Assembly (NCBI GenBank): GCA_951406725.2
Contig: OX597817.1
Location: forward strand, 145,824,001 to 145,888,000
Source: Octopus vulgaris
Taxonomy: Eukaryota
Direction: 5' to 3'
DNA length: 64,000 nt
The translations under genes and the position numbers were made by a program. Shown piece by piece: positions 20,880 to 51,937 of the stretch (within the stretch, counting starts at the first letter, position 1; each line of letters starts with the position of its first letter). The notes beneath the pieces were generated by a model, which was not told the origin of the DNA, did no database searches, and saw nothing but the letters and a program-made list of their open reading frames with translations.

Positions 20880-22104
20880 CTTCCTGGATCCAGAAGGTGT
20901 CTGAGGTCCTGGACGTGAGAGGCAACGAAAGACATACTTTAAGGCTAGTTGCCGTCTATGCCCCGACAGAGGCAGAACGACCAGATTTCTTCAGATGTCT
21001 GGAAATCTTCCTAGGAAGTGTTAGTGCCTAAAGCTTTCGATAGGGTCGACCATCTATACCTGGCGGCGGTCCTCAAGGCAGCTGGTTTCGGACCTGTAGT
21101 GTTAGTGGAGGATTGGAATGGAGTTTTAGATGTAAGGTGGGGCTGTGTAAATTTAGTAGATAGGAAAGAAGGGTGCAAAAGCATCGTAAACCTGCTCAGA
21201 CGATTCCAACTGTCTGACAGGTATCGACTGGATTTCCCAGATGTGCCAGTGTAGACCTGGTCAAACAGCATCGGGTTACTCAGATCGTATTTAGATAGGG
21301 TGTTCTGTAGAGTAGCAGATAAGGATAGCATAGATTGTCCACAGTTTAAAGTAGTCGACTACACAGACCATAAGTTCGTGTACAGTCGACTTAGACAAGC
21401 TTCATAGACAGGGACCCGGTTACTTGAAGCTGAACATGTCGTTGCCGGCGTGTAAAGATTTTTCATCGGATAAGTGAACTAGTTAAGAGGACGTTGATGG
21501 GGGCAACAATCAACAATAAATGGTGGTTCGCCCTGAAAAGGGCTATTAGAATAGAATCGATAAGGTTTAGCAAAGGATTAGCAGTAGAAAGAAACAGAGT
21601 AGAGGCAGAGTTAATCAAAAAGCTAGGCGAGGCTTTTAGAAAAAGCACTCACGACCGATATGCTCGCAGCAAGATTGGCACTCGACCAATTTTTCAACGC
21701 GAAACACGAAGGTTGCGTTGTCAGAGCTAAGGCACGAGCACTTAGACACGAAGGGACGAGGGCCCGAGTGACAGAGGCACGGCGTGGCAATAAATCCACG
21801 ATCCAATCCTTGCCTAAAGCTTTCGATAGGGTCGACCATCTATACCTGGCGGCGGTCCTCAAGGCAGCTGATTTCGGACCTGTATTCAGGGGGTGGATCG
21901 CTGCAATGTACAGCGACATCTGTTCAGTAGTCAGAGTGAACGGTCATCTCTCAGAGTCGTTCAAAGTCATACGATCGGTCCGTCAGGGTTACCCACTCTC
22001 GTCTCTTTTGTATGTACTGACTTTAGAGCCATCACTACGCAAACTGGAGACGTTGAAAGGCATCTCGCGTGACCTAGGATGTGGGAGATGCGTGTCGACA
22101 TAAC
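20880..22104 (+). mobile_element. Tx1/L1-clade LINE ORF2 remnant (APE endonuclease plus RT) with internal deletion
   Basis: LRLVAVYAP, DWNGVLD, TWSN...SYLDRV, TDHK, GPGYLKLN (APE region); KAFDRVDH, RSVRQGYPLSSLLYVL (RT). Confidence 0.9.
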
Positions 22105-47470: not shown

Positions 47471-48398
47471 GTTGAAGTGTTAATTTAAACTTGACTATCT
47501 AGGATCGAATCTACTTCATGCCTGCAAGATTCAGTCTGAGGATAACTTCTAACCTTTTTCTAATCCCAGAAGCCCTTAAAGGTCCATGGGTGTTGCCTTC
47601 CTTTGTTGACAAAGTCATAAAAAATGGGAAACAAAATGTTTCCTTTGTATCTTTAACCCTCTAGTATTTAAACTGGCCATATCCTACCCAATCATTCAAC
47701 CTATTTCATGTTCAAACTAAGCCAGATCTGGCTTCTCACACGGACCCTACAATGTCATTTTTGTGGTTGATGAAAGGAGCACAACGGAAACAAGGAAATA
47801 GGAAACAGAGGTGCAATAAGGTCTTACCTGACGGGGGATGAAGTCGGATGGCCTTCAGCCAACTTGCTCGCGTGTTGTCGTCTCGGTGCCTTGCTGGGGT
47901 CTGTCGTAGCCGGTCGATGCCGCACGTGCGTTGAGTTGAAGTGTTAATTTAAACTTGACTATCTAGGATCGAATCTACTTCATGCCTGCAAGATTCAGTC
48001 TGAGGATAACTTCTAACCTTTTTCTAATCCCAGAAGCCCTTAAAGGTCCATGGGTGTTGCCTTCCTTTGTTGACAAAGTCATAAAAAATGGGAAACAAAA
48101 TGTTTCCTTTGTATCTTTAACCCTCTAGTATTTAAACTGGCCATATCCTACCCAATCATTCAACCTATTTCATGTTCAAACTAAGCCAGATCTGGCTTCT
48201 CACACGGACCCTACAATGTCATTTTTGTGGTTGATGAAAGGAGCACAACGGAAACAAGGAAATAGGAAACAGAGGTGCAATAAGGTCTTACCTGACGGGG
48301 GATGAAGTCGGATGGCCTTCAGCCAACTTGCTCGCGTGTTGTCGTCTCGGTGCCTTGCTGGGGTCTGTCGTAGCCGGTCGATGCCGCACGTGCGTTGA
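47471..48398 (+). repeat. 464-bp tandem duplication spanning the flank and part of the 3' LTR
   Basis: 47471-47934 repeats at 47935-48398; the first unit contains a partial LTR at 47762-47936. Confidence 0.95.
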
Positions 48399-48536
48399 GT
48401 CTCTCACTTCCGCTTCCGCCGGCGCATGCGCCCTGCAAGACCTGTAAGCATCACTTCCGCTCCCGCCCGTCCCGTCACACTCCTTCATCACCACACCACA
48501 CGCCCCCCTGATCTATAAATCACTGAACCAGCTTCC

Positions 48537-50588
48537 TCACTCGCTCCCGCACCCGAAACTGGTTTCATAATCAGCCAGCCAGGGAGGAGGGTGCCGGTCC
48601 CTCTGTGGTCGCAGCGCGACCCTAGGACTTGTTTCTGGTGTGTTGCTGTCGACCTCGTCATCCTGTCGGTTGTTTTCGTCCTGCCCACTGTTGCTTGTCC
48701 CATCCTCTGGGGCATGGACAATCCTCCGTATGTCCAAAACGTGGCGTGGCATACCATCGATGAAGATGTTATTTTTCGAACTTACGGAGGTTATTGTCCC
48801 CTTTCCCCATTGCGATGTACACCGTGCGTTTGGGGGTTTTACCCAGACTTCCTCCCCGACCCGCACGAAGGCGTGCTCTTCCTCTGCCCCGGGTTGCATT
48901 GATTTAGTACACGGATGCCTCCACTCGTACCTAAATATTGCTCTGTGTGGCACCGATTCCTCAGCCTGTCCGGATCGGGGAGACAAGTTGTACCAAAAAA
49001 CTGCTTCAAGCGGCGAAATGTGCCCCCTTTCCGCTATGGCCTTGACTGTCCGATGGTGCCTCTCCACGATCCCGTTACCGCCCGGCCTATACGCTGCTCT
49101 GAACAAGCGTCGCACGTTCCACCGATCAAGCATAACCCTCAATGCTTCCGAACGAAATGCCGCCCCGTTGTCCATCAGTAGTTCTTCCACGGGACCTCTC
49201 TCTAAAAATATCCCGTTCAGGATCTGCACGATCTCGTCAGCAATGCCCGATCTCAACTCCCTCCAAATGGCCAGCCGGCCCGGCCCACAGTCGACCATGG
49301 AGAGGTACGTTCGCTGACGGTAGTGTGTCACATCCACAGCTAGCCTTTTCCAGTTCTGCTCCACGGAAAGGCTTCCCTGTTCATGCCCACACGGAGCAGG
49401 GTCGATGGACTGACACCTGTCCTCCACCGCAGTGCCTTCGATTGCCAACACCACCCCTATCGCTATACTGCTAGCGTCACACCAGACAGTCCCGCATTTC
49501 GTCCTGGGCACGTACCAGTTCCCCCTGACCGGGTCTTCCGCTCTTGTCCTCTCTAGGATCTCCTGCATCATCGCCACCGTCCCTTCTCCCACCTTGTCGC
49601 CCCACCTCTCTCCTTCTGCTCGTCTCTTGGTGTAACTACACGCCGTGCGCAGCCATCCAGCGATCGGGTAGTGACCGACCAACTTCCCACACACCGAGAA
49701 CAGCTCTCTCCTGCTGACGCTGGAACTCAGCTCTGGGATTTCATTTCCTCTCCGGAACACCAATTCGCCTGATCTATCTCTTCGCAGCTTCAGCCCCAGT
49801 GCGGCTCCCCCTTCAATCGACTCCGGCGGCTTAGCAATCAGTCCGAACTTCTCCAGATGTCTCACTACCTCGTCGGCTGCCACTACAGTTTCGTCCACCA
49901 AAATGTCGTCAATGTAGGAGCTGGTGGCCTTTCTAATCTTGCCGTCTTTCCCCAGGACGGACCTAAGCACTGCCGACATGATCTTCGGAGCAGAATTCAG
50001 CCCGAAACCCAGCCTGGTTAGACAGTACGTCCGGCCCTTGTACCGCACCAGCTGATATCGCCATAGTTTGTCGCTCACATGGAGCTGCAAGTATGCCGAT
50101 CTCAAGTCGACAATCGTCGCTGCCTCAGTCGACTGTCTCCACTTGCGCAATGCCTCACCACAAACGTCTGTCGCCTCACCTCCCGTGTGACACGATATGT
50201 GCTGGTTTAACTCCCTGAAGTCCAGCACCGGTCTAACTTTTCCCTTCGTAGGCTGCACCACCGCCATCAGGGGTAGCACTCCGCCCGCTACCTCCTCCTT
50301 CCAAGGGACAAGGATCCCTTCCTCGATCCACCTCTCCACCTCGTCTTCAAACTCAACCCTGGCGTGGCCTTTCAGAGTATGCTGGTAACAGCTCACCCTG
50401 TTCTCCAGTGTCGGGGGCTCGTCCTTCCATTTCCACTCTATCGTCCACCGCCTGAAAGTCCTTGTCCTCGATGGTGTAAGCAGCGCCGTCCCTCGCGGGG
50501 CTCTGCTCCCTCTGGTGATCCTGACTCGCAGCGCACGACGCCCCCACGCTTCCGAACGTGACCTTATTTCCCACAACGCTGACGCCAC
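48537..50588 (-). CDS. Gypsy pol remnant: RT, truncated RNase H, integrase core
   Basis: KVRPVLDFRELN, DLRSAYLQ, RLGFGLNSAP, SYIDDILV; CDASS; AVDVTH, DNGAAF, GNGIVER. In-frame deletion joins VED to RCQSIDP. The N-terminal ~45 aa are out-of-frame read-through. Confidence 0.93.
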   Translation of the reverse strand: MASALWEIRSRSEAWGRRALRVRITRGSRAPRGTALLTPSRTRTFRRWTIEWKWKDEPPTLENRVSCYQHTLKGHARVEFEDEVERWIEEGILVPWKEEVAGGVLPLMAVVQPTKGKVRPVLDFRELNQHISCHTGGEATDVCGEALRKWRQSTEAATIVDLRSAYLQLHVSDKLWRYQLVRYKGRTYCLTRLGFGLNSAPKIMSAVLRSVLGKDGKIRKATSSYIDDILVDETVVAADEVVRHLEKFGLIAKPPESIEGGAALGLKLRRDRSGELVFRRGNEIPELSSSVSRRELFSVCGKLVGHYPIAGWLRTACSYTKRRAEGERWGDKVGEGTVAMMQEILERTRAEDPVRGNWYVPRTKCGTVWCDASSIAIGVVLAIEGTAVEDRCQSIDPAPCGHEQGSLSVEQNWKRLAVDVTHYRQRTYLSMVDCGPGRLAIWRELRSGIADEIVQILNGIFLERGPVEELLMDNGAAFRSEALRVMLDRWNVRRLFRAAYRPGGNGIVERHHRTVKAIAERGHISPLEAVFWYNLSPRSGQAEESVPHRAIFRYEWRHPCTKSMQPGAEEEHAFVRVGEEVWVKPPNARCTSQWGKGTITSVSSKNNIFIDGMPRHVLDIRRIVHAPEDGTSNSGQDENNRQDDEVDSNTPETSPRVALRPQRDRHPPPWLADYETSFGCGSE

Positions 50589-50865
50589 CGAGGCAGTTGA
50601 TGGCGTCCATCCCCATCACCACATCAACTCCATTTATCACGCGTTCGGCCACAATTGCCTGTAGCCTTAGCGTCGCGCACCACTATCTCTACCGCGCTGC
50701 TGCCTCTGCAACGGATTTCGCTGCCGTCGACCGCCCGGACACTACACACCCCGTTCCATTCCTTCGTCACCCTCGAAGTCACCAGGGTGGTCGTACAGCC
50801 CGTATCCACAAGGGCCTTGAACGTCTCCCCCTTGGCCTCCACGTCAATCACTGGCAGTGTCTCCA
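50480..50865 (-). pseudogene. Retroviral-type aspartic protease, frameshifted
   Basis: [26 protein letters not shown], continuing in another frame as VINGVDVVMGMDAINCLGG. Confidence 0.9.
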
Positions 50866-50900
50866 GTCAGGTAAGACCTTATTGCACCTCTGTTTCCTAT

Positions 50901-51252
50901 TTCCTTGATTGGTGTACCAATGTCCCAACAGTGAGCCTGATAAAGGTCCACATAATTGGTCTGCAGACACTCAAGACTCTTCTCCAAGCCAGCCACAATG
51001 TGTTTACGACTGAGCCCAACAGCATTGACGTCGGTCGGGTCGTTGGGGTTGGTGTTGACCCGGACCTTAGTGGCGATAACATACCTGCTCCTTTCTTTAC
51101 TGCTGAGCCAGTTACCGACAATTGTCTCCGACTGACGGTCAGTGTAGACATCTGCTGTGTCAATGAAGTTGCCACCACATTCGGCAAAACGGTCAAGGAG
51201 TTGATATGAACCTGTGGGGTCCAACTGACCTGGGCGATGATTTTTTTTCATC
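50901..51252 (-). pseudogene. Captured intronless aldo-keto reductase fragment (YajO/Tas/Kv-beta-like AKR), N-terminal half of the barrel
   Basis: [11 protein letters not shown]...SETIVGNWL...YVIATK...[32 protein letters not shown]. Catalytic D, Y, K and H are present; no stops. Confidence 0.93.
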
Positions 51253-51937
51253 CTGACGGGGGATGAAGTCGGATGGCCTTCAGCCAACTTGCTCGCGTGT
51301 TGTCGTCTCGGTGCCTTGCTGGGGTCTGTCGTAGCCGGTCGATGCCGCACGTGCGTTGAGTCTCTCACTTCCGCTTCCGCCGGCGCATGCGCCCTGCAAG
51401 ACCTGTAAGCATCACTTCCGCTCCCGCCCGTCCCGTCACACTCCTTCATCACCACACCACAATTTTAAAAATAAACAATCACATCATCAAAATCTCAAAG
51501 CTAAAATATAATACATGATTAATAAAGAGTAGAAATTAATATTATTAAATAATATCAATTTCCACCAGTGGTCGTCAGCATGCTTAAAAAACGTCTGAAG
51601 ACTGTGAATTCTTTTTAAATATAAACAATATGAGAGATCCCTATGTAGATCCCTTGTATGCTAAAAATAGATGTCAAACCGTCTTGAACAATTGAAAAGA
51701 AAAAGAAAGAAATATAGCACTATGTTTATTTTTTTTATTCATTTGTCTAGCTCGTAAACATCTAGTGTCTTGCTAATTTGAGAACACAGATTTTGTGGCA
51801 AGACAGTTTGCCATCTATTTTTAGCATACAAGGGATCCACTTAGTGAACTCTCATATTGCTTATATTTAAGTAAGACAATGTTAACAAATAAGCTTTACA
51901 TTTGACAGAATAAACTGAATGGTAAACGGTTAATACT

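What the first reader, a model, noticed from the sequence alone, without database searches (positions are those of the whole stretch)
50866..51461. Gypsy element that transduced an aldo-keto reductase mRNA through the splice donor in its own LTR
Seen: on the minus strand the intact 3' LTR reads ...CCCCGTCAG|GTAAGACC, a consensus splice donor. The 5' LTR matches it up to exactly that point and then reads ...CCCCGTCAG|GATGAAAAAAAATCATCGC, entering ~350 nt of stop-free AKR coding sequence in place of U5, PBS and gag. The element still has TG..CA ends and a perfect 5-bp TSD, so it was integrated by integrase. Known: this parallels retroviral oncogene capture, where a viral donor splices to a cellular exon and the RNA recombines during reverse transcription. 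Inference: elsewhere in the genome an LTR of this family drives a spliced LTR-AKR chimeric transcript that was co-packaged with element RNA and recombined.
Basis: partly seen in the sequence, partly recalled or inferred. Interest (0 to 1): 0.9.

Follow-up and report, generated by a model that had tools for sequence, protein, structure and literature searches.

The report
Jumping gene captured spliced host message
A young retrotransposon in an animal genome carries three joined exons of a host enzyme gene, attached exactly at a splice signal in its own end repeat; it was likely captured the way cancer-causing retroviruses pick up host genes, and although the piece is probably non-functional it records the capture step unusually cleanly.

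Summary
Confirmed and extended. A Gypsy-type element (51461-48226, minus strand, 5-bp TSD) has its 5' LTR cut at the only strong splice donor of the element and joined to the first base of exon 2 of an intron-bearing host aldo-keto reductase gene on another chromosome; exons 2, 3 and 37 nt of exon 4 follow without introns. The mature mRNA shares 1 nt with the LTR there, so microhomology switching does not explain the joint (chance about 1e-5); splicing does. One copy only. No source LTR lies within 160 kb of the parent gene, and the captured allele differs from the assembled one (10 of 352 bases), so cis-splicing on another haplotype is inferred, not shown; trans-splicing stays open. LTR-mediated retrocopies are known; a spliceosome-type joint inside the LTR with loss of the primer site is a new variant. 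Published Drosophila BLASTOPIA retrocopies look like unrecognised splice joints too. The scan's earlier notes held no such case.

The parts
51462..51466 (-). 5' copy of 5-bp target site duplication AAAAT
51253..51461 (-). 5' LTR, positions 1-209, ending at the exon side of the LTR splice donor
   Evidence: identical to 3' LTR over 209 nt
51100..51252 (-). copy of host AKR exon 2 (152 nt plus one extra A); begins at the exon's first base
   Evidence: G000:C27:24364850-24365001, preceded by TTGATAG
50937..51099 (-). copy of host AKR exon 3 (163 nt), joined without introns
   Evidence: C27:24367189-24367351, 1 difference
50900..50936 (-). first 37 nt of host AKR exon 4; last 8 nt shared with the inverted LTR piece
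   Evidence: C27:24368774-24368810
50866..50907 (+). 42 nt of the LTR (positions 205-246) in inverted orientation; 8-nt microhomology on the AKR side, none on the internal side
50844..51251 (-). 135-aa open frame from an ATG two bases into exon 2; N-terminal third of an AKR barrel plus 18 residues of junk; predicted not to fold
48501..50865 (-). internal remnant from sister position 1095: protease, RT, RNase H, integrase, polypurine tract; deletions of 5 nt (at 50679/50678), 17 nt (50453/50452) and 507 nt (49422/49421), each at a 3-5 nt direct repeat
48226..48500 (-). intact 3' LTR, 275 nt; donor GT at 48291-48290
48221..48225 (-). 3' copy of target site duplication AAAAT
47471..47936 (.). second unit of a 464-bp tandem duplication (first unit 47935-48400) covering LTR 101-275 and the flank; later than the insertion

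Best explanation
The element carries three intron-free exons of a host aldo-keto reductase gene joined at the LTR's splice-donor motif to the first base of exon 2, a joint likely made by the spliceosome in a chimeric RNA that was likely co-packaged and copied into the element by template switching during reverse transcription. Inferred steps: (1) a copy of this family sat in sense orientation in intron 1 (or just upstream) of the AKR gene on a haplotype not in this assembly; (2) its RNA spliced from the LTR donor to exon 2; I favour read-through from its 3' LTR over a 5'-LTR promoter transcript, about 3 to 2; (3) in one particle, minus-strand synthesis on a normal element RNA broke off at the gag/protease border, jumped without homology onto the free end of a minus-strand strong-stop DNA (giving the inverted 42 nt), then switched at 8 shared bases onto exon 4 of the chimera and ran through exons 3, 2 and the LTR; (4) integrase inserted the DNA; the primer site is absent either because the longer read-through product collapsed between its two LTR copies or because the second jump used the short R stretch. 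The product is a dead, single-copy partial retrocopy.
For: Shown: joint at exon 2 base 1 after a pyrimidine tract and AG; two exon-exon joints, both also bridged by contigs of an RNA-type run (records 10, 13). The donor pattern MAG|GTRAG occurs only twice in a 4262-nt sister, once per LTR, and GTCAG|GTAAGAC is unchanged in 28 of 28 other LTR loci aligned. Exon 1 ends GCTACT, so mature mRNA and LTR share 1 nt; an intron-1-retaining RNA shares 3 nt, one of 65,922 such blocks; random joint 0.6-1.2e-5 (post hoc). TSD and TG..CA ends intact; 13 of 13 two-LTR sisters among 16 stretches fetched also show 5-bp TSDs. The captured allele differs from assembled P1 at 10 and P2 at 19 of 352 bases, interleaved, while the element differs from its nearest sister at 7 bases over about 2.6 kb: the donor allele is not the assembled one; some of its variants occur in other runs. 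A second copy (L054) has a strand switch between LTR 198 and 243 with an 8-nt microhomology and a retained TSD, so inversion at this zone recurs in the family. Known: oncogene capture depends on chimeric read-through RNA (PMC515179, PMC4997597, passages).
Against: No source element within C27:24275001-24435000; the two nearest relatives on C27 (about 0.8 and 1.2 Mb away) have other LTRs. No chimeric RNA observed. Transcription start not mapped; about 198-205 is inferred from only two inversion joints. Direct exon 1-exon 2 joining was seen for paralog P2 only, assumed for P1. The locus also has a post-insertion tandem duplication, so later DNA rearrangement cannot be excluded for the inverted piece. 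Single event; no reads of the assembled individual were examined.
Confidence: 0.62

Rival explanations
1. Trans-splicing: the unpaired LTR donor of an element RNA was spliced to the exon-2 acceptor of an AKR pre-mRNA with no linked insertion; capture then as above.
For: Same exact splice joint; no family sequence in 160 kb around the gene; five unlinked Drosophila genes were captured at one BLASTOPIA site, which cis-splicing would need five separate insertions to explain.
Against: The captured allele is not the assembled allele, so the empty assembly does not speak against cis; trans-splicing between unlinked pre-mRNAs is rare (own knowledge).
Confidence: 0.17
2. Post-integration repair: an intact element was inserted, then its 5' part was replaced during break repair by a cDNA patch of AKR (or of an LTR-AKR chimera) plus a local inverted templated insertion.
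For: Explains intact TSD without a primer site; short inverted local insertions are typical of end joining (own knowledge); the locus has a later tandem duplication.
Against: Without a spliced chimera the donor/exon-start coincidence stays unexplained; an independent copy shows a like inversion at the same LTR zone.
Confidence: 0.1
3. Ordinary double template switch (Tan et al. model) onto an RNA that still held intron 1, using the 3-nt AG|G overlap; no LTR splicing.
For: 3 nt are shared with the unspliced acceptor; the 3' joint has 8-nt microhomology as in that model.
Against: One of 65,922 blocks of 3 nt or more; needs introns 2 and 3 removed but intron 1 kept; a switch inside the LTR loses the primer site.
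Confidence: 0.07
4. Assembly or library artefact.
For: Single copy; no listed run holds more than 0.59 of the stretch's words.
Against: Genomic reads cannot create three splice-type joints; TSD, continuous flanks, private deletions and a non-assembled allele argue for a real insertion.
Confidence: 0.04

Closest known systems
LTR-mediated retroposition in metazoans (Tan et al. 2016, PMC5131818; seen: passages, section 5, supplement search hits, part 1 of Dataset 4)
   Same: Partial, intron-free host mRNA replacing internal element sequence, both LTR ends kept, microhomology at the 3' joint, more than two switches, allele differing from the parent.
   Different: 5' joint lies inside the LTR at a splice-donor motif with 1 nt shared; primer site lost; inverted LTR patch. 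Their main text does not invoke splicing (2 unrelated occurrences).
BLASTOPIA retrocopies of Drosophila in the same paper
   Same: [quoted passage not shown] My reading: likely splice joints too.
   Different: That site is internal (276+1775 nt), so the primer site is kept and copies re-transposed; the authors read it as a template-switch hot spot. Dataset 1 with the joints could not be read.
Retroviral oncogene transduction (read-through or spliced virus-host RNA, co-packaging, non-homologous recombination; PMC515179, PMC4997597, passages)
   Same: Chimeric RNA first, recombination during reverse transcription second; splicing from viral donors into host acceptors; third-template patches at joints.
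   Different: Here an env-less retrotransposon in the germ line, donor in the LTR, no sign of selection or of a replicable product.
Maize Bs1 and plant gene capture (review PMC13317346, passages)
   Same: Host exon fragments inside an LTR element.
   Different: Old, multi-gene, expressed chimera; the passages read list read-through and abnormal template switching, not an LTR splice donor.

Membership tests
Ty3/Gypsy LTR retrotransposon | Direct LTRs with TG..CA ends and short TSD | tested here: met
Ty3/Gypsy LTR retrotransposon | Order gag-protease-RT-RNase H-integrase, no env | tested here: met
   Pfam on a sister: zf-CCHC, protease, RVT_3, H2C2, rve in that order (several below curated cut-off); RT seen only by motif YIDD, RVT_1 not hit
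Ty3/Gypsy LTR retrotransposon | RT phylogeny within Gypsy rather than Bel/Pao | not tested
   no tree built; no Bel-type peptidase family hit
LTR-mediated retrocopy (Tan 2016) | Intron-free host mRNA segment replacing part of the element, both LTR ends present | tested here: met
LTR-mediated retrocopy (Tan 2016) | Microsimilarity at both switch points | tested here: not met
   8 nt at the 3' joint, 1 nt at the 5' joint against mature mRNA, 0 nt at the third joint; hence a variant, not a plain member
LTR-mediated retrocopy (Tan 2016) | Able to re-transpose as a non-autonomous element | tested here: not met
   primer site absent; single copy
Retroviral-type transduction through a splice donor | 5' joint is element donor to host exon start | tested here: met
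Retroviral-type transduction through a splice donor | Source provirus upstream of the captured exon in sense orientation | tested here: inconclusive
   absent from 160 kb of this assembly, but the captured allele is not the assembled one
Retroviral-type transduction through a splice donor | Chimeric RNA exists and is packaged | not testable with these tools
   only contigs of other individuals were available
LINE-made processed pseudogene | Poly(A) tail and own TSD around the mRNA copy, host element continuous on both sides | tested here: not met
   3' truncated, no tail, 885 nt of element replaced
Functional aldo-keto reductase | Complete barrel domain | tested here: not met
   covers Pfam positions 13-120 of 291 only

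The most novel reading that the evidence does not exclude
Animal LTR retrotransposons have a second, overlooked route of gene capture in which the spliceosome, not reverse transcriptase, makes the 5' joint, possibly in trans with no linked insertion; this element is a clean fossil of it and the BLASTOPIA 'hot spot' is the same thing, so a conserved unpaired donor turns an element into an exon-trapping device.
Probability: 0.3. Interest if true: 0.8.

Novelty: new variant of a known kind. Interest (0 to 1): 0.58.

Why it matters
The standing model for LTR-made retrogenes in animals is two microhomology switches. Here the 5' joint cannot be a microhomology switch on mRNA and reads as a splice. 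That ties natural retrotransposon capture to the oncogene-transduction route and makes a testable prediction: captured fragments should start at exon starts opposite element donors far more often than chance, which published Drosophila cases already hint at. Splice-made joints keep exon borders and so favour in-frame fusions. This copy itself is dead and single, which caps the score.

Tried and rejected
Search for the source LTR: none in 80 kb, then 160 kb; relatives at C27:23.53 and 25.57 Mb match only the internal region. Other donor-joined copies: 0 with non-G and 1 (this one) with G-not-T after the donor, against 34 intact donors (exact patterns, lower bounds, older variants missed). Public runs: no RNA holder on record among 24 listed; of 4 laid runs from 4 studies no listed piece bridges the LTR-AKR joint or the flank-LTR joint, but 7425 pieces were not shown and contigs drop rare forms, so this is no evidence. 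The 'opposite strands' joint in that call is only the normal LTR meeting the inverted piece. Transcription start could not be read from contig depth; no TATA or AATAAA found. Bacterial or contaminant origin rejected (introns in the parent) although the best solved relatives are microbial-type AKRs. P1/P2 template switching rejected: diagnostic sites interleave. RNA editing does not explain the differences (mixed kinds). A 5-nt overlap GTCAG at both sides could suggest a DNA inversion or staggered cut; it still needs the spliced joint, and the second end is not CA, so I set it aside. One search's P2 exon-2 comparison was off by one base and was redone; one search's LTR line for L054 joint a failed to print, that joint rests. 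Folding was uninformative. Literature: searches found no paper describing splice-made joints in LTR retrocopies; the library lacks most subscription papers, so this is not proof. R-mediated second-strand transfer in primer-site mutants is recalled, not found. Earlier scan notes: none near, none with all words.

Full report
Setting. The window is G000:C4:145824001-145888000 of a 2.8-Gb animal assembly; its repeats look cephalopod-like (recalled, not tested).

Anatomy. On the minus strand the element runs 51461-48226 (3236 nt) between AAAAT duplications. The 3' LTR is 275 nt. The 5' LTR is identical for 209 nt plus one shared G, then leaves the LTR exactly where the 3' copy reads CAG|GTAAGA. Of 16 family stretches fetched, 13 are two-LTR elements, all with 5-bp TSDs and 0-5 LTR mismatches where countable; the closest is 4262 nt with a 99.6% identical LTR. 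Against it the window element lacks positions 210-1094 (rest of LTR, primer site, gag), has deletions of 5, 17 and 507 nt at short direct repeats, and 7 substitutions. Domain order in a sister is zinc knuckle, protease, RNase H-like, integrase: Gypsy-type, not tested by tree.

The insert. 51252-50900 matches two tandem host genes on C27 exon by exon and nothing else. It is exon 2 (152 nt plus one extra A), exon 3 (163 nt) and 37 nt of exon 4 of paralog P1; all parent introns are GT..AG, and 51252 corresponds to the first base after TTGATAG. Contigs of an RNA-type run bridge both exon joints. The piece differs from P1 at 10 and from P2 at 19 of 352 bases, interleaved, far more than the element differs from its sister; some window variants occur in other runs. 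So the donor was another allele than the assembled one.

Is the 5' joint a splice? The pattern MAG|GTRAG occurs only twice in the whole sister, once per LTR, and the motif is unchanged in 28 of 28 other LTR loci aligned. Exon 1 of P1 ends GCTACT, so mature mRNA and LTR share a single G; direct exon 1-exon 2 joining was seen for P2 and is assumed for P1. An intron-1-retaining RNA shares 3 nt, one of 65,922 such blocks. A random joint would hit this donor and an exon start at about 1e-5 (post hoc, one event). Splicing is by far the best reading.

After the AKR piece come 42 nt of LTR 205-246 in inverted orientation, overlapping exon 4 by 8 nt (CAAGGAAA) and meeting internal position 1095 with no shared base. 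Another copy, L054, has an inversion between LTR 198 and 243 with an 8-nt overlap and kept target site. Inference: both arose when reverse transcriptase jumped between a nascent strand and minus-strand DNA, and strong-stop DNA ends, hence the RNA start lies, near 198-205.

Mechanism. Best (0.62): a source copy in intron 1 on an unsampled haplotype gave a cis-spliced LTR-AKR RNA, co-packaged with a normal element RNA; minus-strand synthesis broke off at 1095, jumped onto a free strong-stop end, then by 8 nt onto exon 4, and copied through to the LTR; integrase inserted the product. If the RNA was a 3'-LTR read-through it carried primer site and packaging signal, left one strong-stop DNA without a landing site, and gave a longer product that could collapse between LTR copies; this uses only established steps (read-through capture: PMC515179 and PMC4997597, passages; solo-LTR recombination: own knowledge). 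A promoter transcript with a jump through the short R is the alternative (recalled from MLV work, not found). All of these steps are inferred.

Against. No family sequence in 160 kb around the parent genes, none of 34 donor-bearing LTR matches on C27; the chimera is single copy; no chimeric RNA seen; a later tandem duplication shows the locus has been rearranged. Rivals: trans-splicing 0.17, post-integration repair 0.10, plain microhomology switch 0.07, artefact 0.04.

Function. The extra A opens a 135-aa frame covering Pfam 13-120 of 291; no complete barrel, predicted non-functional. Without primer site the element cannot be copied again by the normal route.

Known context. LTR-mediated retrocopies are documented across animals with microsimilarity at 25 of 29 joints (PMC5131818, section 5). 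That paper's five BLASTOPIA cases join at one site followed by GT, near exon junctions, and in four readable schematics start with a whole exon; its text does not invoke splicing, and its Dataset 1 could not be read, which may bear on this. Searches found no paper on splice-made joints in LTR retrocopies. An earlier scan note (e1-7222922) on a donor inside a Perkinsus LTR is a loose parallel, unchecked.

Verdict. Real; new variant of a known kind; interest 0.58.

Noticed in passing
L047 (G000:C11:54722788-54727049), element positions 276-287; also L049, L055, L062, one mismatch in L058: The 12 nt right after the 5' LTR are the exact complement of nucleotides 1-12 (the 5' end) of this genome's tRNA-Phe(GAA), not of a tRNA 3' end: the family would prime with a short 5' tRNA fragment. 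Not found in searches; PMC10886601 (passages) names only 3' ends and anticodon loops.
   Followed up: partly
L054:4586-6069 (G000:C8, about 117.81 Mb): Second rearranged copy: LTR and gag to 882, then 3' LTR 243 back to internal 3694 inverted, then LTR 198-275; GTTAG on both sides with 5 extra bases.
   Followed up: partly
window 47471-48400: Perfect 464-bp tandem duplication over the 3' LTR end and flank; real later duplication or assembly slip.
   Followed up: no
window 51248-51241: The A run is one base longer than in the parent, which puts the ATG at 51251 in frame with AKR; P1-type contigs of three runs stop aligning there, so the base looks private to this copy.
   Followed up: partly
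G000:C27:24359927-24395200: Two tandem AKR paralogs (24 differences in 352 bases), both present as spliced contigs in two RNA-type runs; P1 has a partial extra copy of exon 3 at 24367969.
   Followed up: partly
window 48500-48380 (LTR 33-115): TATA-less LTR with GC-box, ETS-, NRF1- and E-box-like motifs (names recalled; positions).
   Followed up: no
window 21627-22100: 158-aa frame resembling a LINE fragment (by eye); not scanned.
   Followed up: no
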